Shown piece by piece: positions 38,243 through 57,069 of a stretch of DNA of 64,000 bases. The stretch comes from a plasmid: the sequence record NZ_CP043850.1. The stretch is one strand, 5' to 3'. A model generated the notes under the pieces. That model ran no database searches. It saw only the letters and a list, made by a program, of their open reading frames with translations, and had not been told where the DNA came from. Position 1 is the first letter of the stretch; each line of letters starts with the position of its first letter. A program made the translations under genes and the position numbers.

Positions 38243-38285
38243 TGTCAAGACGCGGCGAAGATCGCACGCGACTCGTGAAGGGCAG
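38243..38285. repeat. degenerate left-type TIR copy (TGTCAAGACGCGGCGAAGATCGCACGCGACTCGTGAAGGG)
   Basis: Matches the consensus TGTCGAGATGCAGCGAAGAT with 3 mismatches, and the subterminal GCACGCGACTCG of the 57505 copy. Preceded at 38200 by CCACAAACGACCG, a motif also found at 26024, 26766 and 27478. Confidence 0.4.
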
Positions 38286-40515: not shown

Positions 40516-40590
40516 TCAGTGAATCTCCAGTTCTATGTGCGGTTCCGGGAGTTCGTCAATGACACCCGGGTCTACAGAGCGTCAAGCGTT

Positions 40591-40714
40591 CAGGCGCTTC
40601 CTGGCGTATGAAACATATTTGCGCGTTTCTGAAATCTTCACTGCATCTCGACAGGCGCTTCCTGGCGTATGAAACATATTTGCGCGTTTCTGAAATCTTC
40701 ACTGCATCTCGACA
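40591..40714. repeat. tandem duplication (2 x about 61 bp) of right-type TIR end (rc TGTCGAGATGCAGTGAAGATTTCAGAAACGCGCAAATATGTTTCATACGCCAGGAAGCGCCTG)
   Basis: The unit CAGGCGCTTCCTGGCGTATGAAACATATTTGCGCGTTTCTGAAATCTTCACTGCATCTCGACA occurs at 40591-40653 and again at 40652-40714. Its outer about 50 bp also occur at 58839-58897. The first ~25 nt of its reverse complement match the left-type copies. Confidence 0.7.
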
Positions 40715-40751
40715 TGGGCGATGGCGCAGGGCACAAGGGAAGGCGAGGTGG

Positions 40752-40800
40752 TGTTGTAGAGATGCAGCGAAGATTTCACACGACACGCGGTGAACCCTTC
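40752..40800. repeat. left-type TIR copy in inverted orientation relative to 40591-40714 (TTGTAGAGATGCAGCGAAGATTTCACACGACACGCGGTGAACCCTTC)
   Basis: One mismatch to the TGTCGAG terminus. Hairpin-capable GAAGATTTCAC...GTGAACCCTTC. Together with the tandem right-type copies it gives an end-to-end junction of element termini. Confidence 0.55.
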
Positions 40801-41166
40801 TCGGAGCAAAACCTTCAGCGGGGTCTGTGAAATGTACCCCTCGGCCGCCGAGAGAGTCATCAACGCCCAGGGTCAGTACATCTAGCCGACCACCCTGACC
40901 GCTGCGTCGCGGACATGTCCCAGGCGCGCGCCTGACAGTGCGCTCATGCCGGGAAGGCGATTCTGAGGCCGTGCCACCTGCCGCTCGACTTCCGCCTCAG
41001 GCACCGGGTGCAGAGGAGTCACCTCTCGTGGTCGACGGCGGGCTATCAGTCGGGGATGCTCTCGCGTGCAGCCTTGCGAATCTGTGCTGAAGCGTGCTGC
41101 GAGGCAAAGGTCAGCAGTTGAGAAACAGCTGGCGGGCGTGAAGCAGGAACTGGTGACAGCTGATCG

Positions 41167-41295
41167 TTAGTGCCGGGAGGCTGAGGATGAGTCGTTGGCG
41201 GCCGTGCATCCGGTGAGCAGGAAAGCACCGACCACGACGGTGATTGCAGCGGTTTTCGTTCCGCCGTACTTCGGGAATGGCCTGAAGTTTTTCAT
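41167..41295 (-). CDS. unannotated 42-aa lipoprotein ORF downstream of a CsoR-type operator
   Basis: Minus-strand ATG at 41295 with RBS AAGGAATCCC gives MKNFRPFPKYGGTKTAAITVVVGAFLLTGCTAANDSSSASRH* (signal peptide with lipobox LTGC). Too short for the supplied ORF track. The perfect palindrome TACCCCATAGGGGTA lies 42 bp upstream. Confidence 0.4.
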   Translation of the reverse strand: MKNFRPFPKYGGTKTAAITVVVGAFLLTGCTAANDSSSASRH

Positions 41296-41335
41296 GGGAT
41301 TCCTTCCCGTGTCTGCCCGTGGTGCCAATTGGCCT

Positions 41336-41352
41336 TACTACCCCATAGGGGT
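41336..41352. promoter_or_regulatory. CsoR-type operator (perfect palindrome TACCCCATAGGGGTA)
   Basis: Same TACCCC-N3-GGGGTA architecture as the sites at 45979, 49974 and 57070, and as the known B. subtilis CsoR operator TACCCTACGGGGGTA. Confidence 0.55.
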
Positions 41353-41415
41353 AGTGCCTACCTGCGTGACGCGGAAGCGCCCCCGCCCGGAACGAGCCCG
41401 GGAGGGGCACTGCGT

Positions 41416-42357
41416 TCAGTCGTGCTTGCTGATTTCCGGTTCATGTTCGGCAATGTGCTCGGTCTCGATCTGGAAGGTCGAGTGATGGATGGAGACCTCG
41501 AAGTGTCCTGCGACGCAATCTTTGATCTCGTGGAGCGTCTGCGCGGCACGACCGTCGGTGAAACACTCGTCCTCGACGACGACGTGGGCGGTCAGGATCG
41601 GCAGGCCGGTCGCCACAGTGGAGGCGTGCAGGTCATGGACATCTTTGACATGGTCAAGTTCGAGGATGTGCGAACGCACCTTGTCGAGGTCGAGGCCCTT
41701 GGGAGTGAACTCCATAAGGACGCCAGTGGTCTCGCGCATGAGCTTGAACGCGCGAGGCACGATCAATGCGGCGATAAGCAGTCCGGCGATGGCATCGGCC
41801 TGCATGAACCCGGTCGTGGCGATGACGATCGCCGCGATGATCACTCCGAGCGACCCGAGGGCATCATTGAGAACTTCGAGGAACGCGGCACGCATGTTGA
41901 AGTTCGAGCCGCGGCTGGAGGCGAGGATGGTGATGGCGATGATGTTCGCGACCAGGCCGATGATGCCGAATATCAGCAGTTCGCTTGCGGGCACCTCCGG
42001 CGGCTCGAACAGTCGCCGGATGCCTTCGATGGCGGCGTAGGTGCCCACCGCCAGCAGCAGTGCCGACTGTCCGAGGGCTGCGATCACTTCAATACGCCGG
42101 AACCCCCAGGTGCGCTTGGAGTTGGCGGGCTTGAGCATCAGCGTCGCGGCGATCAGTGCGACCAGCAGGCCGGACGCATCGGTAATGGCATGGGCGGTGT
42201 CGGTCAGCAATGCGAGGCTGCCGGTGATGACCGAGCCCATGGCCTGGGCAACGACGATCGTCGCGGTGATCGAGAATGCGATCCAGAGTTTCTTGCGGAA
42301 ATCTCCGGGGTGACCGGTCTCGCTGGCGGCGGGGCCGTGATTGTGTCCTGCGCCCAT
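41416..42357 (-). CDS. cation diffusion facilitator (CzcD/ZitB-like) metal efflux transporter
   Basis: About 313 aa from MGAGHNHGPAAS (His-rich N-terminus). Six TM helices with a CDF signature region and a C-terminal cytoplasmic domain. The ORF track over-extends upstream into the arsR gene. Confidence 0.8.
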   Translation of the reverse strand: MGAGHNHGPAASETGHPGDFRKKLWIAFSITATIVVAQAMGSVITGSLALLTDTAHAITDASGLLVALIAATLMLKPANSKRTWGFRRIEVIAALGQSALLLAVGTYAAIEGIRRLFEPPEVPASELLIFGIIGLVANIIAITILASSRGSNFNMRAAFLEVLNDALGSLGVIIAAIVIATTGFMQADAIAGLLIAALIVPRAFKLMRETTGVLMEFTPKGLDLDKVRSHILELDHVKDVHDLHASTVATGLPILTAHVVVEDECFTDGRAAQTLHEIKDCVAGHFEVSIHHSTFQIETEHIAEHEPEISKHD

Positions 42358-42359
42358 GT

Positions 42360-42749
42360 CTACTTCTTGTCCGTATCTGACGCGTGGTGGGTATGTGGGA
42401 GTCGCAGGTGCGTGCAGAGCAGGGCCTGCGTGCCGGTGGCATCGAGGAGGCGTTCGGCAGCGGCGATGAGGGTACGCAGGAGCTCGGACTGTGCCAGCGA
42501 GTACCAGGTGGAGCGCCCTTCCGGGCGCATCGTCGCCAGGCCGCACTCGACGAGGAAGCCGACATGCTTGCTCACCGTGGACTGGGCCAGGCCCATGTGC
42601 TCGACCAGGTCCCGGACCCGGTGCTCCCCGGAGGCGAGGTGCTGCACGATCGCTAACCTCGTCGGCTCCGCAAATGCCTGGAACAGGTGGGCGTACGCTA
42701 CCGTCGCCACTTCGTCGAGGGTTGCCCCCTTCTCTTGAATCATCGCCAT
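42360..42749 (-). CDS. ArsR/SmtB-family metal-sensing transcriptional repressor
   Basis: 129 aa with HTH LFQAFAEPTRLAIVQHLASGEHRVRDLVEHMGLAQSTVSKHVGFLVECGL. C-terminal His/Cys-containing tail (CTHLRLPHTHH). Immediately upstream of the CDF gene. Confidence 0.8.
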   Translation of the reverse strand: MAMIQEKGATLDEVATVAYAHLFQAFAEPTRLAIVQHLASGEHRVRDLVEHMGLAQSTVSKHVGFLVECGLATMRPEGRSTWYSLAQSELLRTLIAAAERLLDATGTQALLCTHLRLPHTHHASDTDKK

Positions 42750-42885
42750 AAGCCGATCATATCGCTCTAGAGCGATATTGTCGAGTGTGATATGTCGCTC
42801 CGACGCGGAATGAAGCTCAGGGGTCCCGTCGCACCCGAGGATGGGCTACCTGGGGGATGGTCGGTCGCATAGCTGCAGTGGGAAG

Positions 42886-43383
42886 CTACGCCAGCTGACC
42901 ATCGGCCCCGGTGGAGAGCAGGCGGGGTGGGGAGCCGATGTCGATGAGTCGGGTGAAGTAGTCCTGTGCGCAGGTGGCGACGACCCCCACCTGCGGGTGG
43001 CTCCTCCTCTGCCCTGGCCAGGTCAGCGCCACGGTCACCGGTGGGGCATCCTCGATGGGCAGATAGACCACCTCCGGCGCGCGGTGATTGTGCGTTGTCG
43101 CCTCTGCAGTGATGCCGATGGCGTCGCCGACAGCGATGCGGGTTAACCACTCGCCCGTGTTCGCCACCGAGATCGTGCGCGGCATGTGAGCAGTCGTACT
43201 CCACAGCTCCCCGGTGGCCGTCGGAGCGGTCGCGCAGACCGCCACCGGCCCGTCAGCGAGATCGGCTAGGGTCACCGACTCCTGCCGGGCACGGGAGTCG
43301 CTGCTCGTCACCGATACAACCAGGCGTTCGGTGAACAGCGGTAACCGCTCCAAACCCGGACCAATGGCACGTTTGGGTGGAGA
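42886..43383 (-). pseudogene. LysR-family regulator fragment (substrate-binding domain only), truncated by the IS3-family insertion
   Basis: C-terminal LysR pattern LERLPLFTERLVVSVTSSDS...VTLADLADGPVAV.... The upstream part of the ORF is encoded by the IS terminal repeat (TYGCISP from TGGGTGCATCAGTCCC). No LysR HTH on the far side of the IS. Confidence 0.55.
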
Positions 43384-43415
43384 GGGACTGATGCACCCAT
43401 AGGTGACAGCCGTCT

Positions 43416-44477
43416 TCACGCCGCGTCTGCGGGCGTGTGGTCCATGATCAACTCGTACTCGACCGGCGTCAATCGGCCCAGGCGCACCTGCCGGCGGCGG
43501 CGGTGGTAGGTCCGCTCGATCCAGGTGATGATCCCGGCCCGCAGCTCGTCCCGGGTGTCCCAGTCGCGTCGGTCCAGCACGTTCTTCTGCAGCAACGCGA
43601 AGAAGGACTCCATAGCCGCGTTGTCCCCTGCAGCACCGACCTGTCCCATGGACCCGATCAGCCCGTGGGCGGTCAGGGCGTCCTGGAATAGGGCCGAGCG
43701 GAATTGCGAGCCGCGGTCCGAGTGCACGATGCACCCGGCCACCACGTCGGTGCCTCCGCGGCGGGCCACGGCCTGCTCGAGCGCGTTCACGGCCAACGAG
43801 GCCTGCATCCGGTCGGCCATGGAGTACCCCACGATCCGTCCGGCGTAGAGATCCTTGATCGCGCAGAGGTAGAGCTTGCCCTCACCGGTGGGGTGTTCGG
43901 TGATGTCGGTCAACCACAGCCGGTTGGGCTCCTCGGCAGAGAAGTCCCGGCGGACGTGGTCATCGTGCACGGGCGGGCCTGGGCGGGTCCCGTTCTTGCC
44001 GCGCTTGGCCCCGAACGCGCAGTGCCACTGGTTCTCGTGGCAGAGCCGCCAGGCGGTACGGGCCGCCATCGGAGCGCCAGCATTCTCGGCCTCGTCGCGC
44101 AGCAGCCGGTACCCGAACTCGGGATCGTTCTGGTGGGCGTCGTGGAGGGCGTTGGCCCGGTGAGCGGCCTCCACCTCCGCGGTGGTGACAGGGTTCTGGA
44201 GCCAGCGGTAGTAGGGCTGGCGGGCGAGCTTGAGGACCCGCAAGGACACCACGACCGGGATCTGGTCGGCGGCGAGCTCGGACACGAGCGGGTACATCAT
44301 TTTTTCGGCAGGTTCGCCTGGGAGAGGTAGGCCGCGGCGCGGCGTAGGACTTCGTTCTCCTGCTCGAGCAGCCGGATCCTGCGGCGGGCTGCGCGGAGTT
44401 CTTCGGCCTCGGCCTTGGTGGGGCCGGGCTTGTTCCCAGCTTCGATCTCGGCCTGGCGCATCCAGTTCGTCAGACAA
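43416..44477 (-). CDS. IS3-family transposase OrfB (DDE integrase core), expressed as an OrfAB fusion by -1 frameshift
   Basis: DDE motifs (WLTDITEH..., HSDRGSQFRS, ...ESFFALLQKNV). Frame -1 relative to orfA through the AAAAAAT run near 44300-44312. Confidence 0.85.
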   Translation of the reverse strand: MSDELDAPGRDRSWEQARPHQGRGRRTPRSPPQDPAARAGERSPTPRRGLPLPGEPAEKMMYPLVSELAADQIPVVVSLRVLKLARQPYYRWLQNPVTTAEVEAAHRANALHDAHQNDPEFGYRLLRDEAENAGAPMAARTAWRLCHENQWHCAFGAKRGKNGTRPGPPVHDDHVRRDFSAEEPNRLWLTDITEHPTGEGKLYLCAIKDLYAGRIVGYSMADRMQASLAVNALEQAVARRGGTDVVAGCIVHSDRGSQFRSALFQDALTAHGLIGSMGQVGAAGDNAAMESFFALLQKNVLDRRDWDTRDELRAGIITWIERTYHRRRRQVRLGRLTPVEYELIMDHTPADAA

Positions 44478-44599
44478 GAGAAGCTGATCCCGAAGTCCTT
44501 CGCGATCTGCTTCAAGTGGGTGCCGGGCTCACGGTTCTGGGCGACGCGGACGACGTCATCGCGGAACTCTTGGGGGTAGGGGGCGGGCATGGTGCACAT
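44297..44599 (-). CDS. IS3-family transposase OrfA (HTH/leucine-zipper)
   Basis: 100 aa ending ...AAYLSQANLPKK* at the A-run CTGCCGAAAAAATGATG (minus strand), the typical -1 frameshift window. Confidence 0.85.
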   Translation of the reverse strand: MCTMPAPYPQEFRDDVVRVAQNREPGTHLKQIAKDFGISFSCLTNWMRQAEIEAGNKPGPTKAEAEELRAARRRIRLLEQENEVLRRAAAYLSQANLPKK

Positions 44600-44650
44600 C
44601 CTTCCCTGCGGTGTGGGAACACCACAGATCGTATGTCACCTATACGTGCA

Positions 44651-44932
44651 TCAGTCCCGTTCAAGTGAGTAGATCCTGGAACGGCCGAACTTCAGACGGA
44701 TGCCGTAGCCGCCGTTGGGTCCGTCAGGCAGAAACTCTGCCCCCAATTCTTCGAGGGCGGCCCGCACACGCTCCTGCTTCTTCTCCGACAAGTCGTGTCG
44801 CCCCTTCTCGAAGTCGCGCAACTCTTCCTTGGTCACGTTGGCTTCGCGGGCGATATATTGGGCGCTCACCTTCACGAGGATGCGCGCGGCGCGTGTCATG
44901 TCCCCGTTGGAGATGTGCTGGCTCTCCATCAC
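44651..44932 (-). CDS. XRE-like HTH protein; C-terminus and stop codon supplied by the IS3 terminal repeat
   Basis: 93-aa ORF with an HTH-like MTRAARILVKVSAQYIAREANVTKEELRDFEKG. Its last codons (...LERD*) are GAACGGGACTGA, which is the IS end GGGACTGA. Possibly 3'-truncated by the insertion. Confidence 0.35.
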   Translation of the reverse strand: MMESQHISNGDMTRAARILVKVSAQYIAREANVTKEELRDFEKGRHDLSEKKQERVRAALEELGAEFLPDGPNGGYGIRLKFGRSRIYSLERD

Positions 44933-44973
44933 TCGCCTCCTGCGACGTGTGTCCTATTGGGCTCAGCGGGAAG

Positions 44974-45047
44974 TGGAGGTGCCTACGGGATTCGAACCCG
45001 TGTAAACGGTTTTGCAGGCCGCTGCCTATCCTCTCGGCCAAGGCACC
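44974..45047 (-). tRNA. tRNA-Cys (anticodon GCA)
   Basis: Minus-strand sequence GGTGCCTTGGCCGAGAGGATAGGCAGCGGCCTGCAAAACCGTTTACACGGGTTCGAATCCCGTAGGCACCTCCA. 7-bp acceptor stem GGTGCCT/AGGCACC, T-arm ACGGG-TTCGAAT-CCCGT, anticodon loop CUGCAAA with U33-GCA, encoded CCA. Confidence 0.85.
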
Positions 45048-45062
45048 AAGTCGCCGGCGAAG

Positions 45063-45581
45063 TCAGTCGCCCGGCGTGAGGCCAGCAACCAGGTTGAAGG
45101 CGCCGGTGAGAATGTTCAGCGACACGACCCCGACGACATCAGAGATCTCACGGTCGCTGTACCCGTATCCCCGAAGCTCGTCAATCTGCTCGTCGGTGAT
45201 CGACGTAGGCTCACGGTAGACCTGGAGGCCGAGCGCGATCATCGCCGCGACCGGGCTGGTCATCGCCGTACCCTGCTGGGCGAGTGCGATCTCGTCATCG
45301 CTGACCCCGAGCGATCGTGCCGCGCTGATGTGCGAGGCCAGGCACATTCCGCATCCCTGCTTCGACTGCACGGCGATCGAAACGAGCTCGCTGACTTTAC
45401 GGTCGAGCTTGGCGCGACGCATGGCTTTGCTCAGGTCGAGATAACCGCCGAGCACCGCCGGGGAGTGCGCCATCGTCGAGACCATGTCTCCGACCTGGCC
45501 GTGCCGCTCGACGAGATCGCCGAGCAAGTCTCGTGAGGCCCCCACTGCGGTCTCAGGGGTTAATCGGGAAAAACGGGGCAT
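45063..45581 (-). CDS. carboxymuconolactone decarboxylase / AhpD-like (CMD family) protein
   Basis: About 172 aa from MPRFSRLTPE with the AhpD-like CxxxH motif (QGCGMCLASH). The ORF track over-extends 40 codons. Confidence 0.7.
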   Translation of the reverse strand: MPRFSRLTPETAVGASRDLLGDLVERHGQVGDMVSTMAHSPAVLGGYLDLSKAMRRAKLDRKVSELVSIAVQSKQGCGMCLASHISAARSLGVSDDEIALAQQGTAMTSPVAAMIALGLQVYREPTSITDEQIDELRGYGYSDREISDVVGVVSLNILTGAFNLVAGLTPGD

Positions 45582-45594
45582 GATGCCTCCTCTG

Positions 45595-45966
45595 TCAGTT
45601 CGGTCGCAAGTTCGAGGTGGGAGAACCTGCACGAGTGCGTTCCTGCTGCTGATGTTCGGCATGGAAGATCGCAGCCTCAGCCAGCGCCCCGGCATGCACA
45701 CCGTTCAATAGGTAGAAGTCGCGGGACTCGCGTCGCTGCCGACTCACGATCCCGGCCGACTCCAGGCGGTGAAGCTCGTGGGAGGTCTGGTCGACGGGAA
45801 GGTCGACGATGTCCGCCAGATGATTGGCAGAGACCTCGATGTCGCGAATGGCGAGGATCATCTTCACACTCACCAGATTCGCCAGCAACGCGAAGACTCC
45901 GACCGCCGCATTCAGATGCGGTGTGTCATACGTGGCGTGCGCGTGCTCAACCTCTTTCATAGTCAT
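45595..45966 (-). CDS. ArsR-family HTH regulator
   Basis: 123 aa with a winged HTH pattern (LHRLESAGIVSRQRRESRDFYLLN). Preceded by a CsoR-type palindrome at 45979-45995. Confidence 0.6.
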   Translation of the reverse strand: MTMKEVEHAHATYDTPHLNAAVGVFALLANLVSVKMILAIRDIEVSANHLADIVDLPVDQTSHELHRLESAGIVSRQRRESRDFYLLNGVHAGALAEAAIFHAEHQQQERTRAGSPTSNLRPN

Positions 45967-45978
45967 TAATACTACCCT

Positions 45979-45995
45979 ATACCCCTATAGGGTAT
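45979..45995. promoter_or_regulatory. CsoR-type operator-like palindrome (TACCCCTATAGGGTA) with upstream ACCCTATA half-site
   Basis: ATACCCTATACCCCTATAGGGTAT lies directly upstream of the arsR-like/CMD operon start (45966). Confidence 0.45.
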
Positions 45996-46001
45996 CAAGG
46001 G

Positions 46002-46667
46002 TTATTCAATCGATGTGACGGACTTGGAGACGCGTGGCCGGGTGCGGCGGATCGGGGTGAGGCCAGAGGCGACGGGTCCGCGCAGGAGCACGTGTCCAGT
46101 CGGGAGGGTCAACCGCGTCCAACGGCCGGCGGTTGAGATCGTGGCCCCGTTTCCTCGGCTGAGGAACCCGAAGACGTAGGCGGCGAACGCAACGCCTTGT
46201 GGCAGCGATGCGAGTGCCGTGTCCGGGGTGCCCCAGACCGTGCCCCGGATCTTGCGGACGACATCGTCGCCGGGTTTGTCGGGAAGTGCTTGGGCGACGG
46301 CCTCGATGCCGGCACGGGCGCTGCGCATCAGCGTCAGGCTGGTCACATCGGCAATAAGTCTCCACCCGTGTTGCGGGGGTTCGACGCTGGTCCAGGCGGG
46401 TGCCAGCGCGGTCTCCGGCAGCGCCAGGGTCAGGGGGTCGGCGGTCGCGGTCAGGGTGTCGACGGTGACGTCGCACTGCAGCTCGGGGTCGGAGCGGAGC
46501 GTGCGAAGGACGAGGATCGTAGGAGTGCGGTCGAGCGGGCCACGGGGCGTTAGCGCGGCTGCGGCCTGCAAGCGCACGCCATGGGCACCGGCCTGCGCGG
46601 CCCGCTGAGCGAAGGTGAGCGCGTCGCGGGCGGGCGGCGCGTCGGCGAGGATCAAGCGCGCTGGCAT
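46002..46667 (-). CDS. hypothetical protein
   Basis: 221-aa ORF with consistent minus-strand coding orientation. No recognisable motif. Confidence 0.35.
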   Translation of the reverse strand: MPARLILADAPPARDALTFAQRAAQAGAHGVRLQAAAALTPRGPLDRTPTILVLRTLRSDPELQCDVTVDTLTATADPLTLALPETALAPAWTSVEPPQHGWRLIADVTSLTLMRSARAGIEAVAQALPDKPGDDVVRKIRGTVWGTPDTALASLPQGVAFAAYVFGFLSRGNGATISTAGRWTRLTLPTGHVLLRGPVASGLTPIRRTRPRVSKSVTSIE

Positions 46668-46719
46668 CCTGAGGGTTTGTGCCCGCCGTGTCCTGGAACG
46701 CGGTGGTCAGGGGCCGGGT

Positions 46720-47031
46720 TCAGGAGCGAACGAGCCGGTTGATGGCGTCGGTGGCTTCCTGGATCTTCTCGACGGCCGCCTCGTCGCTGAGCTTGGCGGC
46801 ATCAAGCACGCAGTGCTTGAGATGGTCGTCGAGCAGACCAGTCGCGACCCCCTGGAGGGCACGGGTCAGGGCGGAGACCTGGGTGAGGATGTCGATGCAG
46901 TACTTCTCCTCATCGATCATCTTCGCGATCCCACGCGCCTGTCCTTCGATGCGCTTCATGCGGCCGAGATAGCGCTCCTTGTCGCTGATGTAGCCGTGCT
47001 GGTGGGAATCGTTATCGACAGACATGGGCAT
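46720..47031 (-). CDS. csoR: CsoR/RcnR-family copper-sensing repressor
   Basis: About 103 aa from MPMSVDNDSHQHGYI. Signature HGYISDKERYLGRMKRIEGQARGIAKMIDEEKYCIDILTQ...H..C (Cys-His-Cys ligand pattern). Directly downstream of the CopB-like ATPase. Confidence 0.8.
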   Translation of the reverse strand: MPMSVDNDSHQHGYISDKERYLGRMKRIEGQARGIAKMIDEEKYCIDILTQVSALTRALQGVATGLLDDHLKHCVLDAAKLSDEAAVEKIQEATDAINRLVRS

Positions 47032-47035
47032 GTCC

Positions 47036-49273
47036 TTACTTCTGGCGCTCCAGGACGGAACGCGTGCTAGCTTCGGGTGTAAGGTCGATGCGCCGCAGCA
47101 GCTGGGCGTTGAGCGCGACAACCACGGTGGAGGCTGACATCAGGATCGCGCCGATCGACATTGGCAGGACGAGTCCCACCGGTGCGAGGATACCGGCCGC
47201 CAACGGCACCGAAAGAAGGTTGTAGCCGGCGGCCCACCACAGGTTCTGCTTCATCTTGCCGTATGCGCGTCGCGACAGCTGGATGATCGAGAGCACGCTG
47301 CGTGGGTCGGAACTGGCCAGGATCACCCCGGCCGAGGCGATGGCGACATCGGTGCCAGCGCCGATCGCGATGCCGACATCGGCCTGCGCCAGAGCCGGGG
47401 CGTCGTTGACGCCGTCGCCGACCATCGCGACCCTCTTGCCCTCTTCCTGCAGCTGGGAGACCTTCGCGGACTTGTCCTCCGGGCGCACGCCGGCGAAGAC
47501 GCGGTCGATGCCGAGCTCCTTGCCGACCTCGTTCGCGACCGCCTCGGCATCGCCGGTGATCATGACGACCTCGACGCCGAGGGCGTGGAGGGCGTCGACG
47601 GCGTAGCGGGATTCTGGCCGGACCTCGTCGGCGAGCCTCAGCCCGCCGACCACCTGGCCGCCGCGGAGAACGTGCAGAATGATCGCGCCCTCGGAGCGCC
47701 ATGCCTCGGCCGTGCCGACCTCGTGCTGACCGGTCTCCTCGAGCAGCCGGGGCCCGCCGACGCGGACCTCCTGGCCGGAGACGGTCGCAGTGACGCCGAC
47801 GGCGGGCGAGGATGAGAAGCCGCTGGCCTGCTGGAGGGCAAAACCCTTGTCCTTGGCGGCGGTGACGATGGCCTTGGCGAGCGGGTGCTCGCTGTCGGCC
47901 TCGGCCGAGGCAGCGAGGGCGAGGACCTGGTCGGCGTCGAGTTCGCCGGTCGGCTCGACGCCGGTGACGGTGGGCTCGCCCTTGGTCAGCGTGCCGGTCT
48001 TGTCGAACAGGACCGCGTCGACCTGCCGCATGGACTCCAGCGCCAGGCGGTCCTTCACTAGGACGCCGCCGCGGGCGGCTCGCTCGGTGGCGATGGAGAC
48101 GACCAGCGGGATCGCCAGGCCGAGGGCGTGGGGGCAGGCGATGACGAGCACGGTGATGGTGCGCACGACGGCCTCGTCGGGCATGCCGATGAGCGTCCAG
48201 ACGACCGCAGTGACCAGCGCCGCGCCAAGAGCGAACCAGAACAGCCAGGCCGCGGCCTTGTCGGCGATCCGCTGGGCGCGGGAGGATGAGTTCTGCGCCT
48301 CGGCGACGAGCCGGTTGATGCCGGCCAGGGCGGTGTCGTCACCGGTGGCGGTGATCTCCACCCGCAGGCCGGAGTCGGTGGCGACGGTGCCGGCGGTGAC
48401 GGTCTGGCCCTCGCCGCGAGAGACCGGGCGGGACTCGCCGGTGATCATGGACTCGTCCATCTCGGCGCGGCCGTCGACGATGGTTCCGTCAGCCGGGACG
48501 CTGCCGCCGGGGCGCACGAGGACCACGTCGCCCACGTCGAGGTCGGCTGGGGCCACCTTGACGACGTTCTCGCCCTCGACGCGCTCGGCCTCGTCTGGCA
48601 GCAGTGCCGCCAACGAGTCGAGCGCCGAGGTGGTCTGGGCCAGGGAGCGCATCTCGATCCAATGGCCCAGCAGCATGATTACGATCAGCAGCGCCAGTTC
48701 CCACCAGAATTCGAGCTCATGATGGACGAGCCCGAGCGTGGCGGCCCAGGAAGCGAAGAAGGCCACCGTGATCGCCAGAGCGATGAGCAGCATCATCCCG
48801 GGCTTGCGGGACTTCAACTCGCTGACGGCACCGGTGAGGAAGGGCCTGCCGCCCCAGACGTACATGACGGTGCCCAGTGCCGCGGCGACCCAGCCCGCCC
48901 AGCCGGGGACCTCGTAGCCCAGCAGCATGGCGAACATCGGTGAGAGGGCGACCGCGGGGATGGCGATGACGAGGTTGATCCAAAACAGTCGGCGGAACTG
49001 GCCAACGTGGTCCCCGTGCCCGCCATGGCCGCTGTGATCTCCGTACCCACCGTGCTGGGCATGCTCATCGTGGCCGCCGTGCTCGTCGAGGCCCGTGTGG
49101 CCTGAGTGCTGCCCGTGGTCCATGGCGTGGCCCTGATGCCCGGTGTGCTGACCCTCGCGCGTGCCGTGCGCATCCGCCGAGGCGTGCGCGGACACAGACC
49201 CGTGGTGATGCTCGCCGTGGGCGGGTGTATCGGTTTCGTGACCGTGATGCTGTTGTGAGTTCGGGTCCGTCAT
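47036..49273 (-). CDS. P1B-type heavy-metal ATPase, CopB-like (His-rich N-terminus, CPH motif)
   Basis: 745 aa with His-rich N-terminal MBD (HGHETDTPAHGEHHHGS...), TM6 CPH (IACPHALGLAIP), DKTGTLT, the HP motif and [10 protein letters not shown]. Confidence 0.9.
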   Translation of the reverse strand: MTDPNSQQHHGHETDTPAHGEHHHGSVSAHASADAHGTREGQHTGHQGHAMDHGQHSGHTGLDEHGGHDEHAQHGGYGDHSGHGGHGDHVGQFRRLFWINLVIAIPAVALSPMFAMLLGYEVPGWAGWVAAALGTVMYVWGGRPFLTGAVSELKSRKPGMMLLIALAITVAFFASWAATLGLVHHELEFWWELALLIVIMLLGHWIEMRSLAQTTSALDSLAALLPDEAERVEGENVVKVAPADLDVGDVVLVRPGGSVPADGTIVDGRAEMDESMITGESRPVSRGEGQTVTAGTVATDSGLRVEITATGDDTALAGINRLVAEAQNSSSRAQRIADKAAAWLFWFALGAALVTAVVWTLIGMPDEAVVRTITVLVIACPHALGLAIPLVVSIATERAARGGVLVKDRLALESMRQVDAVLFDKTGTLTKGEPTVTGVEPTGELDADQVLALAASAEADSEHPLAKAIVTAAKDKGFALQQASGFSSSPAVGVTATVSGQEVRVGGPRLLEETGQHEVGTAEAWRSEGAIILHVLRGGQVVGGLRLADEVRPESRYAVDALHALGVEVVMITGDAEAVANEVGKELGIDRVFAGVRPEDKSAKVSQLQEEGKRVAMVGDGVNDAPALAQADVGIAIGAGTDVAIASAGVILASSDPRSVLSIIQLSRRAYGKMKQNLWWAAGYNLLSVPLAAGILAPVGLVLPMSIGAILMSASTVVVALNAQLLRRIDLTPEASTRSVLERQK

Positions 49274-49343
49274 GATTCCTCTCCTCCGTCATCGAGCCAG
49301 GCCGATTGCCGCTCACCCGGTGGCCGGGCAAGCGAACGTCGGC

Positions 49344-49961
49344 TCAGGACGCTGGTTGGATCTCGCTCTCGACGACCCACTTGTGGTTCGTCATCTTCAT
49401 GCCGTCCGTCTCGTAGTCGACCATGTAGACCGTCTCATCGGTGGACGAAGCAATGATGGCCTTTACGCCTTCCATGCCTTCCATGTGCTCGGCGAGCAGA
49501 GTCACCTCTGTGCCGTCGGCCAGGCGCGCGTCGCCGGCATCCTCAATTTCTTCCTGCACGACCCACTTGTGATCAGTGACGGGGTCGCCGCCACCTGCGG
49601 GCGTGTAGTTCACGGAGTACGTGTACGTGTCGAATGCGCCGGAAATCGTTGCTGTAGCCCCTTCCATGCCTTCCATGTGGTCGGCCGTGAGCTGCACCTC
49701 GGTACCGACAGGGTAGGTGGGCTCACTGGCTTCGGCGATACCCTCGGGTGCCGGTCCGCCGTCCATCGGGTGCTCCATCTCTTCATCACCGCTTTCTGCG
49801 TTGTTGCCGCCGTGGCCCTGATGCTCCTCAGTAGCCGAGGGGTCGGTCTGCTGGTTGTCGTCTGCTCCGCTGGCGCAACCGGCGAGCACGAGCGCCACTC
49901 CGAGGGCTCCCGCTGCCAGTCCTGTTCGCAGTCTCCTCTGCATGTCATTTCCTTTCATCAA
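49344..49961 (-). CDS. DUF1541/YdhK-like copper-associated lipoprotein (duplicated domain)
   Basis: Lipobox LAGC. Two repeats carrying HMEGMEG...Y.V.Y and a Met/His-rich linker. This family typically sits next to copper ATPases. Confidence 0.6.
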   Translation of the reverse strand: MMKGNDMQRRLRTGLAAGALGVALVLAGCASGADDNQQTDPSATEEHQGHGGNNAESGDEEMEHPMDGGPAPEGIAEASEPTYPVGTEVQLTADHMEGMEGATATISGAFDTYTYSVNYTPAGGGDPVTDHKWVVQEEIEDAGDARLADGTEVTLLAEHMEGMEGVKAIIASSTDETVYMVDYETDGMKMTNHKWVVESEIQPAS

Positions 49962-49973
49962 TATGCCTACCCT

Positions 49974-49990
49974 ATACCCCTAGGGGGTAC
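49974..49990. promoter_or_regulatory. CsoR-type operator (TACCCCTAGGGGGTA) followed by shared TACTAGTCAA box
   Basis: Lies between the ydhK-like start (49961) and the ferredoxin stop. The same GGGTAC...TACTAGTCAA arrangement recurs upstream of copZ (57070-57100). Confidence 0.55.
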
Positions 49991-50040
49991 TAGTCAAGAC
50001 TTGTGTGTTGTGTCGGTATGGATCAATCGGAAACCCCTTC

Positions 50041-50370
50041 TCAGAGGGTCTGCTCGTGTTGGATGGGCAATGCGGCGATGAGGGGATGGTCGAAGCCCGT
50101 CGGTCCGGTCTTCGCGGCTCCTCCGGGAGAACCCAACTCGTCGAAGAACTCGACGTTGGCCTTGGAGTAGTCAGACCATTCGTCGGGCAGGTCGTCTTCG
50201 TAGTAGATGGCCTCGACGGGGCAGACCGGTTCGCAGGCTCCGCAGTCGACGCATTCGTCGGGGTGGATGTAGAGCGAGCGTTCGCCCTCGTAGATGCAGT
50301 CGACAGGACATTCGTCGATGCAGGCGCGGTCCTTGACGTCCACGCAGGGAAGCGCGATCACGTAGGTCAT
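50041..50370 (-). CDS. 7Fe ferredoxin (FdxA-type, 3Fe-4S + 4Fe-4S)
   Basis: 109 aa with CxxDxxCxxxCP and CxxCxxCxxxCP cluster motifs ([21 protein letters not shown]). Confidence 0.85.
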
Positions 50371-51644
50371 GGCTGCTCCTCTCGGTCGGGTGCGGATCGG
50401 CGGTGAGAGCCGGTGGGAGGCTCGGGGAAGTCGTCAGCCTCTGCCGGGCCTGCGGCCGGGTGCGGGATGCGCAGGCGCAGGACGGTGGCGACGAGGCTGA
50501 GGGCGATGATGATCGCACCGAGGATCGTCATCGTCCCCGACAGGGTGAGCACCGGCACGAGCAATCCGGCGACGATGGTGGGCACGCCGAATGCCAGGTA
50601 GGCAACTGTGTAGATCACAGCCATCACGGCGGCGCGTTCCGACGATGCCGTGTGGGGCATGAGTGTGCGCAGTACCCCGAGGAACGCTGTGCCGAACCCG
50701 GAACCGACGATCGCGACCGAGGCGACATAGGCTGGGTAGGAACCGAGTGCGAGGGCGCCGATGCTCACTGCGGTGCCGAACGCCAGGGCACTGGTCGCAT
50801 ACAGGCTGATGGTGCGGGCGGAACGCCGCTGTAGGACGGAGGAGGCGGTGACTCCGGAGATCGCCAGTGCGAAGAGGACGATCCCAGCTTGGGTGTGCGT
50901 GGAGCCCCCAAGCTCACTGCCGACGAGGTCGGCTCCGAGCGCAAGGAAGAGTCCGTTGGTCGCCCACCCGGCGATGATCACGGGCACTCCGACGGTGAAC
51001 ATGCGGCGTAGGTGCGGTGGCACGGTGAACCGCGGACGGAGGTCGCCACGTCGTATCTGGGTCTTCGGGACCAGTTCCGGTGTGCTCCACACGACCGTTG
51101 CCACGATGAGGAAGGCAAGCACGAGCGACCCGAAGACGGCAGTTGTCGGTTCGGAGGTGAGATCGAGGAGAAGTGCAGCACCGAGAGCCCCGGCCCCAAG
51201 GCCAATCATCGGGCCGATCGTGTTCCACAGGGCTGCGATGTTCCGATGTGACGGGGACTCGAAGTCGATCATCATCGCCGACAGCGCCGGGATCAGCAGA
51301 CCCGCTGCGAGCCCTTGCAAGGCTCGGGCGACCAGGAGCGCCGCGAGGCTACCGGCGAACCAGAACATGGCCACGCTCAGCGCCAGCGCCAAAGAACCGG
51401 CGGCCACGACCGGACGTCGGCCGACGTGGTCGGAGAGTGGTCCGAGGTAGAGCAGCGCGGCCAGGAGGGTGAAGGTGTAGACCGCGAACACGAGTGTGGT
51501 GGCGACGGGGATGAGTCCGAGCCGTTCGGCGATCTGGGGATAGAACAAGGACGGCGCGCTGGCAGCGGCCATCATGAGAATGGTCGCTGCCAGCGAGAGC
51601 ACGAAGCCCCACCGTGGGATCTGCCTAATACAGTCTCCCGCCAT
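50367..51644 (-). CDS. MFS transporter
   Basis: 425 aa with 12 predicted TM helices and an MFS-like GRR/PxxP motif pattern. Confidence 0.75.
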
Positions 51645-51647
51645 TGC

Positions 51648-52793
51648 CTATGCCCGCACGCCGTGGAGCTGCTGCCCCCACTGGTAGACGGTGCCGACTG
51701 CGTCGATGCCAGTGACGCCGACGACGATGCCGTCGATCTCGTGGCGGACGATGAACTCCTCACCCGCTTCCAGGTGGGCGTCTGCGCCGGCTGTGTACCC
51801 GACTCCGGAGATCATCTGACCGTAGACCATTGCCATGTAAGGGCTGCGTGGCAGGTAGGCGCCCGGATCGTCGCTAACGCCGAGGTCGTGCAATGCGGCC
51901 CGCGCGGCATGCGCACCCTGTGCGGCGGCGTCTTCCCAATGGTCGATGCGCCAGGCGTCCAGTGCTTCGTCGTGGTGCGTGGCCACGCCTCCGGCTGCGT
52001 AGACGTGGTCTGCCGCGGCGCGGAGGTGATCGTCGACGTCGATACCGTTCGTCCACGGTGACGGGGCTGCGGGCGTCGTGCCGAGCGCGAGGAGAAGGAA
52101 GTCAGCCACGACGGGATTTCCGTCGTTGAGGGTGATGGTGACACCGGATTCTGTTTCGTCGACATGCTGGAGAGTGCGACCGAATCGGGCCTGCACCTTG
52201 GCGGCATGGTCGGCGGCGAGGCGCTCAGCCACGGGCGCCCCAAACGCTCCGACGCCGGGAACTGAACTGCGGGAGACCAGCGTGACCATGTGTCCGTCGG
52301 CTTGCAGAGACGAGGCCGTCTCGGCTGCGATGATTCCACCGCCGTAGATCGCTACCCGCGCGGGTCGCCCCAGTCCGGTCAGCAGCTTTCGGATGCCCAG
52401 GGCATCCCCCACGGAGTGAAGAGCGGTGACCCGCCCTTGTCCGGCGTCGTCGCCGCCGAACACGTCAGCGGGCAGGGAGCGGGGCATGCTCCCGGTCGCG
52501 ACGATGAGCGCGTCGTAGGAGACTTGTGCGCCGGAGGTCAACTGGGCCTGCTTCGCCGAGGTATCGACTTTAAGCACGGTGTCGGCGATGACCTCGATCT
52601 GAGGCAGCGGGAGCTTGATCATCTCCGGCGGTGTCTGACCGAACGCGATTCCCTTGATGAGCATCCGCGTATAGGGCGTCTCCCCGGTGCGGGTCACCAG
52701 CGTCACCCGGACATCGTCGCGTGAGGCGAGAGTGCGGGCGGCTGCGGCCCCGGCTGCTCCCGATCCGAGGATGAGGACGTGCTGTGGGGTCAT
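51648..52793 (-). CDS. FAD-dependent pyridine nucleotide-disulfide oxidoreductase (ferredoxin reductase-like)
   Basis: 381 aa with an N-terminal FAD GxGxxG (ILGSGAAGAAAAR), a second NAD(P) GxGxxA (AIYGGGIIAAE) and a C-terminal dimerisation region. Confidence 0.8.
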   Translation of the reverse strand: MTPQHVLILGSGAAGAAAARTLASRDDVRVTLVTRTGETPYTRMLIKGIAFGQTPPEMIKLPLPQIEVIADTVLKVDTSAKQAQLTSGAQVSYDALIVATGSMPRSLPADVFGGDDAGQGRVTALHSVGDALGIRKLLTGLGRPARVAIYGGGIIAAETASSLQADGHMVTLVSRSSVPGVGAFGAPVAERLAADHAAKVQARFGRTLQHVDETESGVTITLNDGNPVVADFLLLALGTTPAAPSPWTNGIDVDDHLRAAADHVYAAGGVATHHDEALDAWRIDHWEDAAAQGAHAARAALHDLGVSDDPGAYLPRSPYMAMVYGQMISGVGYTAGADAHLEAGEEFIVRHEIDGIVVGVTGIDAVGTVYQWGQQLHGVRA

Positions 52794-52839
52794 AGAAGAA
52801 CTCCTGGATGCTGGTCGTGATCGAACTGATGCGCCGGCG

Positions 52840-53193
52840 TCAGGAGCGCACGAGGCGGGCGATGGCCTCGGACGCCTCGCCGAGCCTCTGCTCGCTGACT
52901 GGTCCGCCGGCGAGTGCGGCGTCGAGGACGCAATGCTTGAGGTGATCGTCGAGCAGGCCGAGGGCGACGTTTTCGAGTGCCCTGGTGACTGCGGAGATCT
53001 GGGTGAGGATGTCGATGCAGTAGCGGTCCTCGTCGACCATCCGATCGATGCCGCGGATTTGGCCTTCCAGGCGGCGCAGGCGATTGCGGTACTTCGTCTT
53101 ATCGCTGATGTATCCGTGGACGGACGCGTCGCCGTCGCCTCCTGCGGGGCAGGTGTCGAGATGGGTTTCGGTGGTGGGAGTCGTAGTGGTCAT
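52840..53193 (-). CDS. csoR: CsoR/RcnR-family copper-sensing repressor (second paralogue)
   Basis: 117 aa with HGYISDKTKYRNRLRRLEGQIRGIDRMVDEDRYCIDILTQ...H..C. Confidence 0.8.
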   Translation of the reverse strand: MTTTTPTTETHLDTCPAGGDGDASVHGYISDKTKYRNRLRRLEGQIRGIDRMVDEDRYCIDILTQISAVTRALENVALGLLDDHLKHCVLDAALAGGPVSEQRLGEASEAIARLVRS

Positions 53194-53259
53194 GTCGGCT
53201 CGCTCCGATCAGGTGGCGGGGTGCCGCAGCGGTGCCGCGGCACCCCGCACGCTGGTGGA

Positions 53260-53568
53260 TTACGCCATGTTGGCGGCGTACTTGGCTGGGTCCGAATCGA
53301 ACGCGGGCCCACAGCCAGCGCAGCAGAAGTAGTAGCGCTCATCCTCGAAGTCGCGGTAGAGGCCGGCGGCCTCGGCGGTCTTCTTGCTGACCGGGGTGCC
53401 GACCATGACCGGGCAGGTAGTCATGTCATCGGCGCCCCCGCCAAGAAGGTTCTCGCGTCCACCGTTCTCCACGGCCGGGTTGGTCTCGTTCGTGCTGCAG
53501 CAGCTGCTCATTCTCTGGTGTTCCTTCGTTATTGGATTCGTGTGGATGGGTGGGTTCTCGTACGTCAC
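53260..53568 (-). CDS. YHS-domain (TRASH-like) copper-binding protein
   Basis: 102 aa with the C-terminal motif [10 protein letters not shown]...YYFCCAGC. Start overlaps the copA stop. Confidence 0.6.
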
Positions 53569-55835: not shown

Positions 55836-55881
55836 CCTCTTCCTTCTTTCTCAGCTCTCGTGCGACGCCGGGCCCTGCGGG

Positions 55882-56823: not shown

Positions 56824-57032
56824 CAGACGCGCACCGCCGAGTAGCCGGCCTCCTCGACCGCCGCGAGGACCTTGGCGTCGTCGATCTCGCCCTCGGCGGT
56901 GACGTTGAGCTTGCCGGTCTGCGCGCTGACTTGGATGTCCTGGACGCCGGGGATCTCGCTGACCTCCTCGCGGATCGACATCTCGCAGTGGCCGCAGGTC
57001 ATGCCCGTCACCTGGTAATCGTTCGAAGCCAT
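56823..57032 (-). CDS. copZ: CopZ-type heavy-metal-associated copper chaperone
   Basis: 69 aa with MTCGHC metal-binding motif and ferredoxin-like HMA fold. Confidence 0.85.
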   Translation of the reverse strand: MASNDYQVTGMTCGHCEMSIREEVSEIPGVQDIQVSAQTGKLNVTAEGEIDDAKVLAAVEEAGYSAVRV

Positions 57033-57069
57033 CAGGTGTCCTCCTTGTATGTCGGGTTGTACGTCGGGA

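What the first reader, a model, noticed from the sequence alone, without database searches (positions are those of the whole stretch)
40591..40800. Head-to-head junction: tandem-duplicated right-type end facing an inverted left-type end 40 bp away
A 61-bp unit ending in CATCTCGACA is duplicated in perfect tandem (40591-40653, 40652-40714). An oppositely oriented left-type terminus (TTGTAGAGATGCAGCGAAGATTTCAC, one mismatch to the terminus) starts at 40754. Abutting termini of this kind are what IS circle junctions, or sequential insertions of the same element next to each other, leave behind. The duplication could also be a footprint of replicative slippage at the hairpin.
Basis: seen in the sequence. 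Interest (0 to 1): 0.6.

Follow-up and report, generated by a model that had tools for sequence, protein, structure and literature searches.

The report
Junction of two Tn7-like cargo transposons
The repeat marks where two gene-carrying transposons of a little-studied actinobacterial Tn7-like family lie next to each other at an insertion hot spot on a Micrococcus-type plasmid; this is ordinary transposon biology, but it shows how these plasmids collect resistance genes.

Summary
A perfect 61-bp x2 tandem sits at 40591-40714, and an inverted related terminus starts at 40755, 40 bp away. These are not IS ends. The shared tip, TGTCGAGATGCAGCGAAGA, is the terminus of a widespread actinobacterial Tn7-like transposon family. 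Full copies (Gordonia pGKT2) carry TnsA-like, TnsB, TniB and two TniQ genes, with TGT...ACA tips and a 5-bp target duplication.

The window has no tns genes, so its modules are cargo-only derivatives. Element B (40755-58897, 18.1 kb, metal resistance) is flanked by GGTGT. A metagenome contig carries the same plasmid backbone with this site empty, which shows that the 40-bp "spacer" is backbone.

At least five independent insertions fall within 62 bp of this backbone upstream of the FtsK/TraB-like gene. All have the right end facing the gene.

Tip-to-tip junctions (23) and direct tandem ends (23) recur among about 200 ends in other genomes.

The 61-bp duplication covers two of the three conserved right-end blocks and ends exactly at the tip. 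Its origin is unresolved: insertion of a sister copy into the end followed by recombination, replication slippage, or an assembly artefact.

Verdict: a new member of a known kind, of moderate interest.

The parts
18495..18714 (+). Left-type end L1, the outer left boundary of cargo module A. It is interrupted at 18715 by an IS21 copy.
   Evidence: It is 100% identical to M. lacusdianchii locus L099 from exactly the TGT tip inward for 220 nt, and the outside flanks are unrelated. Tip match.
38243..38275 (+). Degenerate left-type end L2, internal to module A. It starts a conserved module of degenerate L end, methyltransferase and R end.
   Evidence: 3 mismatches in the 19-nt tip. The same degenerate end, with the same outer flank, occurs 1.36 kb from an R tip in L125, L126 and L140. 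Window 38199-39491 is 88% identical to that module.
40575..40592 (-). Third conserved block of the right end of module A (TTGAC, read on the minus strand). It lies outside the duplicated unit.
   Evidence: A gapless alignment of 16 Micrococcus-type right ends has an invariant TTGAC at positions 69-73 from the tip. GCGTCAAGCG is at 40579-40588.
40593..40653 (-). Inner copy of the 61-bp terminal unit of the right end R_A. It covers conserved block 1 (tip, 1-33) and block 2 (TATGTTTCATAC, 37-48).
40654..40714 (-). Outer, identical copy of the 61-bp unit. Its ...CTCGACA tip at 40714 abuts plasmid backbone.
   Evidence: Identity between the two units is 100%.
40715..40754 (.). 40 bp of plasmid backbone trapped between the two elements. 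Its last 5 bp (40750-40754, GGTGT) are the left copy of element B's target-site duplication.
   Evidence: L143 reads ...ACAAGGGAAGGCGAGGTGGTGTCCATGCCAGAACC... without interruption. This joins window 40733-40754 directly to 58903 onward.
40755..40885 (+). Left end of element B (L3).
   Evidence: Tip match. About 130 nt are nearly identical to M. lacusdianchii L031, where the same end sits 5-6 bp from a different, single-copy right end.
40755..58897 (+). Element B, an 18,143-bp cargo-only Tn7-like element. Cargo: CDF transporter, ArsR, IS3, two CsoR-type repressors, two P-type ATPases, an MFS transporter, a ferredoxin, an oxidoreductase and an FGE-like protein. It has no tns genes.
   Evidence: TSD GGTGT on both sides. 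Empty site in L143. Cargo. No tns genes.
57505..57571 (+). Left-type end L4, internal to element B.
   Evidence: L142 carries the same L4...R_B unit (1393 bp) with the same outer flank at L4 but a different flank at R_B. L4 is therefore not the mobile boundary.
58823..58897 (-). Right end of element B (R_B), with all three conserved blocks.
   Evidence: 49 nt are 100% identical to the right end in pLMV7. The same end has at least 4 different outside flanks in metagenome contigs.
58898..58902 (.). Right copy of element B's 5-bp target-site duplication, GGTGT.
   Evidence: The chance of a matching pentamer for a random pair of ends is 0.33%.
58903..59192 (+). Backbone upstream of the FtsK/SpoIIIE (TraB-like) gene. 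Together with 40715-40754 it forms the insertion hot spot. It contains the inverted repeat GAGGGAAAT/ATTTCCCTC at 58953-58990.
   Evidence: Independent insertions at -35, -17, 0, +5 and +27 relative to GGTGT, all with the R tip toward the gene. The motif also occurs in pLMV7 and pSGAir0127.
59193..61355 (+). FtsK/SpoIIIE-domain (TraB-like) plasmid gene, which the right ends face.
   Evidence: ORF. About 72% identical to the FtsK/SpoIIIE genes of Micrococcus linear plasmids. The start at 59193 is inferred from the RBS-ATG context.

Best explanation
The region is where two cargo-carrying, transposase-less derivatives of an actinobacterial Tn7-like transposon family meet. The family is the TnsA-like heteromeric transposase clade, with TGT...ACA tips and a 5-bp target duplication. 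Both elements sit in an insertion hot spot about 300 bp upstream of the FtsK/TraB-like gene of a Micrococcus-type conjugative plasmid.

Reading left to right: the right end of module A (with its terminal 61 bp present twice), then 40 bp of original plasmid backbone, then the left end of element B. Element B (40755-58897) integrated into the pentamer GGTGT, 35 bp from A's tip, in the same orientation as A, with its right end toward the FtsK-like gene. The order of the A and B insertions is not determinable.

Both elements must have been moved by TnsA/TnsB/TnsC/TniQ supplied in trans, or have lost those genes. This step is inferred.

The 61-bp tandem is a recent, local duplication of the outermost two of the three conserved right-end blocks. 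I consider three origins. (a) About 0.45: a transposase-made joint. A sister copy of the same element inserts 61 bp inside the resident right end in the same orientation, which is the 'stacking' seen many times in relatives, and homologous recombination between the two bodies then leaves only the extra tip. (b) About 0.3: replication slippage or unequal exchange at the CA microhomology. (c) About 0.1: an assembly artefact.
For: - Tip identity and family. The 19-nt tip is found in more than 120 actinobacterial loci. Next to it, in Gordonia L106/L062/pGKT2, lie TnsA_like_Actin (NF033179, 5.9e-35), a 730-aa DDE protein that matches solved TnsB structures (5e-8), TniB (PF05621) and two TniQ proteins.
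- Full-length relative. The pGKT2 element runs from tip to tip over 25.4 kb, with a perfect TSD CGATG.
- Mobile boundary. Identity to M. lacusdianchii begins exactly at the TGT of L1, and likewise for L3.
- Element B. TSD GGTGT is on both sides, and the empty site is present in L143. The pLMV7 element has TSD GTGGT. The random-pair match rate is 0.33%.
- Hot spot. Five independent insertion points lie within 62 bp of the same backbone, all with the same orientation. The right end faces the FtsK-like gene in pLMV7, pCW.Ay, pLMA7, pJD12 and pSGAir0127, although their backbones are only about 72% identical.
- Recurrence. There are 23 tip-to-tip junctions, with a spacer mode of 5 bp, and 23 direct tandem end pairs with periods of 19-290 bp. 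Most of the direct pairs are heterologous, meaning a different element is nested inside a resident end.
- The duplication. Its border coincides with the tip, and it covers conserved blocks 1-2 of the right end.
Against: - No tns gene is present in the window or in any Micrococcus locus fetched. Mobilisation in trans is therefore inferred, not shown.
- Module A has no matching target duplication (CCGGT versus TGGGC) and is a mosaic. 'Module A' may not be one element.
- The expected partner structure for a nested self-insertion has been erased if it ever existed, so model (a) cannot be told apart from slippage using this sequence alone.
- One comparable homologous duplication (L083) includes 5 bp of flank and an N. 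That fits slippage or misassembly, not transposase chemistry.
- Classical Tn7 shows target immunity, which should disfavour insertions this close to a resident end (paper PMC11014353).
Confidence: 0.8

Rival explanations
1. The 61-bp tandem arose by replication slippage or unequal sister exchange between the CA at 40591-40592 and the CA of the tip, with no transposase involved. The rest of the junction is as in the best explanation.
For: There is a 2-nt microhomology at the borders. Both copies are perfectly identical. L083 has a 78-bp tandem of an end that includes 5 bp of flank, which transposase chemistry would not produce. The opposed tips can pair (z = -3.9), and such pairing could stall replication.
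Against: The right border falls exactly on the transposon tip, the one nucleotide where transposase joins DNA; I estimate the chance of that at about 1 in 60. Most of the 23 direct tandem pairs in relatives are heterologous, so they were made by insertion and not by slippage. No strong hairpin is predicted inside the unit.
Confidence: 0.3
2. The tandem copy is an assembly artefact caused by near-identical transposon ends elsewhere in the replicon.
For: Three right ends and four left-type ends share 19-49 nt in this window. Metagenome contigs often break exactly at these tips (L129, L056). L083's duplicated end contains an N.
Against: The whole array is 124 bp, short enough to be spanned by single reads. 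The flanks on both sides are unique sequence. Homologous tandem ends also occur in a finished plasmid, pSGAir0127 (201 bp, 96%). No reads are available to test this.
Confidence: 0.1
3. The opposed termini are an IS circle junction or an IS dimer junction.
For: Opposed termini a short distance apart resemble IS junctions.
Against: No transposase lies between any pair of ends. The ends belong to a TnsA/TnsB/TniB/TniQ element family. The 40-bp spacer is backbone that is contiguous with the far flank of element B in L143. The two ends flank 18 kb and 22 kb of cargo, not one IS.
Confidence: 0.02
4. The repeats are plasmid regulatory or recombination sites, not transposon ends: operators of the traB-like gene, or sites for the resolvase at 31020-31598.
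For: A right-type copy always lies upstream of the FtsK-like gene. A resolvase is encoded in module A.
Against: The same tips occur in chromosomes of Mycobacterium, Rhodococcus, Gordonia, Nocardioides and others, next to tns genes. Sequence identity between replicons starts exactly at the tip. 5-bp duplications and an empty site are seen. The position relative to the gene varies by 62 bp within one backbone.
Confidence: 0.02

Closest known systems
Tn7 and Tn7-like elements that build islands at an attachment site (for example Tn6022/AbaR in Acinetobacter; PMC11014353)
   Same: TGT...ACA tips, a 5-bp target duplication and asymmetric ends with several conserved subterminal blocks. Relatives carry TnsA, TnsB, a TnsC-type ATPase and TniQ selectors. 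The right end faces the target gene. Several elements or remnants pile up at one site, and cargo islands persist after the transposition genes are gone.
   Different: The tip sequence and proteins belong to a separate actinobacterial clade (NCBIfam TnsA_like_Actin). The target here is a roughly 60-bp zone upstream of a plasmid FtsK/TraB-like gene, not one exact position. Insertions within 14-290 bp inside a resident right end are common, which is not what strong target immunity would give. The window's elements have no tns genes at all.
Tn7706 of Rhodococcus erythropolis NI86/21 (PMC12915292)
   Same: An actinobacterial Tn7-like transposon with tnsA, tnsB, tniQ and tniB. It is 19 kb, mostly cargo, and is found on linear plasmids, where recombination between copies scrambles the flanks.
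   Different: Tn7706 is autonomous. Its end sequences are not given in the text I could read, so I could not test whether they share the tip. No hot spot or end stacking is described for it.
Tn5053/Tn402 family 'res-site hunters' (recalled from my own knowledge)
   Same: Termini begin TGTC, the target duplication is 5 bp, TniB and TniQ are used, and insertions cluster regionally in one orientation near a plasmid maintenance site.
   Different: That family lacks TnsA and resolves cointegrates with a resolvase. Relatives of the present ends encode a TnsA-like endonuclease, so this is not that family.
Non-autonomous (cargo-only or miniature) derivatives of DNA transposons
   Same: Element B and the pLMV7 element have both ends and a target duplication but no transposase. 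L083 holds a 179-bp two-ended mini element.
   Different: They are 10-18 kb long and full of resistance genes, not miniature.

Membership tests
Tn7-like transposons (heteromeric TnsA/TnsB type) | Termini 5'-TGT...ACA-3' | tested here: met
   All seven ends in the window and about 200 ends in relatives start with TGT (TGTCGAG or TGTAGAG), or end with ACA on the other strand.
Tn7-like transposons (heteromeric TnsA/TnsB type) | 5-bp target-site duplication | tested here: met
   Element B has GGTGT, with the empty site seen in L143. pLMV7 has GTGGT. pGKT2 has CGATG. The random-pair expectation is 0.33%. Not met for module A (CCGGT versus TGGGC).
Tn7-like transposons (heteromeric TnsA/TnsB type) | Asymmetric left and right ends, each with several transposase-binding repeats | tested here: inconclusive
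   The left and right types share only the first 26-33 nt. 16 right ends align without gaps, with conserved blocks at 1-33, 37-48 and 69-73. Left ends carry an inverted copy of the GTTCAC block. Binding by TnsB was not tested.
Tn7-like transposons (heteromeric TnsA/TnsB type) | Encodes TnsA, TnsB, a TnsC/TniB ATPase and a TniQ/TnsD selector | tested here: not met
   None is present in the window (tblastn, profile search, Pfam/NCBIfam). The feature is met in relatives with the same tips: L106, L062 and pGKT2. The window's elements are therefore derivatives, not autonomous members.
Tn7-like transposons (heteromeric TnsA/TnsB type) | Orientation-specific insertion at a preferred attachment site, right end toward the target gene | tested here: met
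   Five independent insertions lie within 62 bp of one backbone, and six plasmids have the right end facing the FtsK-like gene. The right-end type is the tnsA-proximal one in L100. The specificity is regional, not exact.
Tn7-like transposons (heteromeric TnsA/TnsB type) | Target immunity: no second insertion near a resident end | tested here: inconclusive
   46 of about 200 ends lie within 300 bp of another end. This argues that immunity is weak or specific to each element, but sequence data cannot measure it.
Insertion sequences that form circle or dimer junctions (IS3, IS21, IS30, IS256 types) | A transposase gene between the two inverted repeats, and junction spacer DNA that comes from the donor flank | tested here: not met
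   No transposase is bounded by these ends. The spacer is target backbone.
Tn5053/Tn402 family | TniA/TniB/TniQ with a resolvase and no TnsA | tested here: not met
   Autonomous relatives encode a TnsA-like endonuclease directly upstream of the transposase.

The most novel reading that the evidence does not exclude
In this actinobacterial Tn7-like clade, target immunity is absent or even reversed. A resident right end, or a plasmid site just upstream of the TraB/FtsK-like transfer gene, attracts further insertions in the same orientation. Cargo-only derivatives moved in trans then stack and nest there, and this process builds the 'variable regions' of Micrococcaceae linear plasmids. On this reading, the perfect 61-bp tip duplication is the scar of an element inserting into its own sister copy.
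Probability: 0.3. Interest if true: 0.6.

Novelty: new member of a known kind. Interest (0 to 1): 0.4.

Why it matters
It gives a mechanistic label to the accessory regions of Micrococcus-type linear plasmids. Published comparisons describe these regions only as variable, IS-rich blocks (PMC11707576, PMC2974207). Here they turn out to be bounded by Tn7-like ends and assembled at one hot spot next to the transfer gene.

It also points to a Tn7-like clade that carries 10-25 kb of resistance and defence cargo, leaves many transposase-less derivatives, and tolerates or prefers insertion next to resident ends. This bears on how target selection and immunity vary across Tn7-like systems, and the hot spot is a candidate new protein-guided target. 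The specific 61-bp duplication is, by itself, a minor scar.

Tried and rejected
- **IS element with its own transposase.** The unit 57505-58897 holds only a 118-aa ORF and an FGE-like protein.
- **tns genes in the window.** None were found by tblastn or by a profile search.
- **A conserved gene inside the ends across 120 loci.** Clustering the ORFs gave no common gene except a few TnsA-like hits. Most ends are therefore not next to tns genes within the 8-kb loci.
- **The empty site in plasmid records.** The reconstructed empty site gave no match in PLSDB. It was later found in metagenome contig L143. The first 21 nt of the spacer were not found in any locus.
- **A known RNA family.** No Rfam match at E <= 1 in 40300-41100.
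- **A hairpin within the 61-bp unit as a driver of slippage.** The only strong predicted pairing is between the two opposed tips.
- **A target duplication for module A.** No pairing of L1 or L2 with either R_A tip gives one.
- **Nested self-insertion with L2 as the incoming left end.** L2's outer flank is a conserved internal sequence, not right-end sequence.
- **Literature.** No paper I could search describes these ends in the Micrococcus plasmids.

Full report
**1. The observation**

The sequence at 40591-40714 is a perfect two-copy tandem of a 61-bp unit (Tandem Repeats Finder: period 61, 2.0 copies, 100% matches, score 248). It reads ...gcgttCA[GGCGC...CATCTCGACA][GGCGC...CATCTCGACA]TGGGCG. 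The right border of the repeat is therefore exactly the ...ACA at 40714. The left border has only a CA microhomology.

Forty base pairs further on, at 40755, an inverted relative begins: TGTAGAGATGCAGCGAAGATTTCACA. The shared 19-nt tip, TGTCGAGATGCAGCGAAGA, occurs seven times in the window at 3 or fewer mismatches, against 0.02 expected:
- In one orientation at 18495, 38243 (degenerate), 40755 and 57505 ('left-type').
- In the other orientation, ending at 40653, 40714 and 58897 ('right-type').

The two types share the first 26-33 nt and then differ consistently.

**2. These are not IS ends**

- The shortest pair (57505-58897) encloses only a 118-aa ORF and an FGE/sulfatase-modifying-like protein.
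- Between 18495 and 40714 lie two IS21 copies, GNAT genes, an IS256, a resolvase, an MmeI-family restriction enzyme, a methyltransferase and a small kinase.
- Between 40755 and 58897 lie a CDF transporter, ArsR, an IS3, two CsoR-type repressors, two P-type ATPases, an MFS transporter, a ferredoxin and an oxidoreductase.
- The rest of the window is plasmid backbone: ParA, RepA, a VirB4-like ATPase, TcpC, an M23/NlpC peptidase and an FtsK/SpoIIIE (TraB-like) gene. It is about 72% identical to the linear plasmids of Micrococcus.

**3. What the ends belong to**

A scan of one genome per species for the tip found more than 120 loci in Mycobacterium, Rhodococcus, Gordonia, Nocardioides, Micrococcus, Dermatophilaceae and others.

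In Gordonia loci L106 and L062 the tip is followed by three genes:
- a TnsA-like heteromeric transposase endonuclease (NCBIfam TnsA_like_Actin, 5.9e-35);
- a 730-aa DDE protein whose catalytic region matches solved TnsB structures (5e-8);
- a TniB/TnsC-type ATPase.

In plasmid pGKT2 of Gordonia sp. KTR9 the whole element can be read. It has tips at both ends, spans 25.4 kb, carries tnsA-like, tnsB (interrupted by an IS3), tniB and two TniQ-domain genes, and has a perfect 5-bp duplication CGATG. A further tip-like end lies 7 bp beyond its distal end.

The ends in the window are therefore termini of a Tn7-like transposon family. In Phycicoccus locus L100, the right-type end is the one on the tnsA side.

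**4. The tips are true mobile boundaries**

- Window 18495-18714 is 100% identical to a Micrococcus lacusdianchii contig starting exactly at the TGT, while the outside flanks are unrelated.
- The left end at 40755 recurs in the same species for about 130 nt, there lying 5-6 bp from a different, single-copy right end.
- The right end at 58897 is found with at least four different outside flanks in metagenome contigs.

**5. Element B and the 40-bp spacer**

The pentamer before 40755 and the pentamer after 58897 are both GGTGT. Metagenome contig L143 carries the same FtsK-upstream backbone with the site empty...ACAAGGGAAGGCGAGGTGGTGTCCATGCCAGAACCGG.... Three conclusions follow:
- The 40 bp between the opposed tips are original plasmid DNA.
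- GGTGT was present once and was duplicated.
- Element B (18,143 bp) is a genuine insertion.

The pLMV7 element likewise has GTGGT on both sides. A random pair of ends from different loci shows a matching pentamer in only 0.33% of cases.

Neither element contains tns genes, and none is present anywhere in the window. They are cargo-only derivatives that were moved in trans or lost their genes later. This last step is inferred.

**6. The hot spot**

In this same backbone, independent elements have their right tip at five positions relative to GGTGT:

| Position | Element | Source |
|---|---|---|
| -35 | module A | window |
| -17 | resident element | L143 |
| 0 | element B | window |
| +5 | resident element | L132 |
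| +27 | inserted element | L128, L133 |

In every case the right end faces the FtsK-like gene. In pLMV7, pCW.Ay, pLMA7, pJD12 and pSGAir0127 a right end also lies upstream of the FtsK-like gene.

A motif with a 9-bp inverted repeat (58953-58990) recurs in that intergenic region in diverged plasmids. It is a candidate target determinant, but this is speculation.

The published comparisons of these plasmids describe variable, IS-rich regions and do not mention these ends.

**7. How unusual the junction is**

Among about 200 ends in the fetched loci:
- 23 are tip-to-tip junctions. The commonest spacer is 5 bp (9 cases), which is what two insertions into the same pentamer would leave. The window's 40 bp is at the long end of the range. 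Three genera share the same spacer pentamer TCTGA/TCAGA.
- 23 pairs are direct tandem ends, with periods of 19-290 bp. Most are heterologous beyond the tip (25-58% identity). That pattern means a different element inserted inside the subterminal region of a resident end, in the same orientation.
- Homologous tandems are rarer: the window (61 bp, 100%), pSGAir0127 (201 bp, 96%), L132 (32 bp), L142 (19 bp) and L083 (78 bp).

**8. The 61-bp duplication**

Sixteen Micrococcus-type right ends align without gaps. They show conserved blocks at 1-33 and 37-48 and an invariant TTGAC at 69-73. The duplicated unit contains blocks 1 and 2 but not block 3.

Because the duplication ends exactly at the tip, and because stacking by insertion is common in this family, my preferred model (about 0.45) is this: a sister copy inserts 61 bp inside the resident right end, and recombination between the two bodies then removes the extra body.

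Slippage at the CA microhomology (about 0.3) cannot be excluded. L083's tandem includes 5 bp of flank and an N, so non-transposase duplications or misassemblies of such ends do occur. An assembly artefact (about 0.1) cannot be tested without reads. Folding shows only the pairing of the opposed tips (z = -3.9), not a hairpin inside the unit. No Rfam family matches.

Single-copy relatives of this right end exist: L143 has the same 49-nt tip variant, and L129 has the same kinase-side sequence. The duplication is therefore local and recent.

**9. Module A is a mosaic**

Module A's outer ends have no matching pentamer. Window 38199-39491 is 88% identical to a 1.36-kb module (degenerate left end, methyltransferase, right end) seen in six other contigs. 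The window then has an extra 1.09 kb (GNAT and kinase) starting 72-116 nt from the right tip. The internal left-type ends at 38243 and 57505 always keep the same outer flank, so they are relics and not active boundaries.

**10. Comparison and verdict**

The closest known systems are:
- Tn7-like elements that build islands at an attachment site, such as Tn6022/AbaR, where degraded ends, cargo persistence and occasional proximal insertions are described, and where immunity is strong in assays (PMC11014353).
- The actinobacterial Tn7706 (PMC12915292).
- The 'res-site hunter' Tn5053 family, for its regional targeting. This comparison rests on my own knowledge. Membership is excluded because relatives encode TnsA.

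The window's elements meet the structural tests for Tn7-like derivatives (tips, 5-bp duplication, asymmetric ends, oriented site preference). They fail the gene-content test, so they are non-autonomous members.

The finding is a new member of a known kind. The wider pattern gives it moderate interest: a plasmid hot spot, stacking of ends, and cargo-only derivatives that build the variable regions.

Noticed in passing
window 18715-26006: Two IS21 copies (18715-20897 and 23829-26006) start 5114 bp apart and have 100% identical first 300 nt. They bracket a MIP-family channel and an alpha/beta hydrolase, like a composite transposon, and are inserted 220 bp inside the L1 end. IstB reads 188 aa in the first copy and 259 aa in the second.
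   Followed up: partly
window 31000-37800: GC falls to 0.50-0.52 at 32-34 kb, against about 0.67 elsewhere. The dip lies next to a serine resolvase (31020-31598), an MmeI-family restriction-modification enzyme (34136-36976) and a GmrSD-like nuclease (37062-37778). This looks like a foreign defence block inside module A.
   Followed up: no
window 58953-58998: A 9-bp inverted repeat, GAGGGAAAT...ATTTCCCTC, lies inside a motif (CCAGAGGGnAATATCYCG on the other strand). The motif recurs upstream of the FtsK-like gene in pLMV7 and pSGAir0127, although the backbones are only about 72% identical. It may be an operator of the transfer gene or the determinant of the insertion hot spot.
   Followed up: partly
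L083 500-756 (Rhodococcus sp. CH91): A 179-bp two-ended mini element of the same family is followed by a 78-bp tandem copy of its end. The copy includes 5 bp of flank and an N.
   Followed up: partly
L100 121-127, L102 149-155, L088 743-749: Tip-to-tip junctions in Phycicoccus, Janibacter and Nostocoides all have the same 5-bp spacer (TCTGA/TCAGA) between different ends. This suggests an exact chromosomal attachment position that is reused by different elements. The site itself was not identified.
   Followed up: no
L125 1465-1690 (metagenome contig): Three different right ends are stacked in direct orientation, 71 and 133 nt apart, next to an opposed left end 20 bp away. This is the most extreme nesting I saw.
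   Followed up: partly
window 41172-42500: The CDF transporter, ArsR and CueP segment of element B is 93% identical to plasmids of Rothia terrae and Rothia amarae. The cargo is therefore shared across genera of Micrococcaceae.
   Followed up: no
pLMA1 (paper PMC2974207, not in the window): The five 29-bp 'iterons' spaced 61 bp apart that were reported for pLMA1 (GGAAGCCCCGCGCACGCAGGGATGAGCCC) look to me like a CRISPR repeat array rather than replication iterons. This rests on my own knowledge and was not tested.
   Followed up: no
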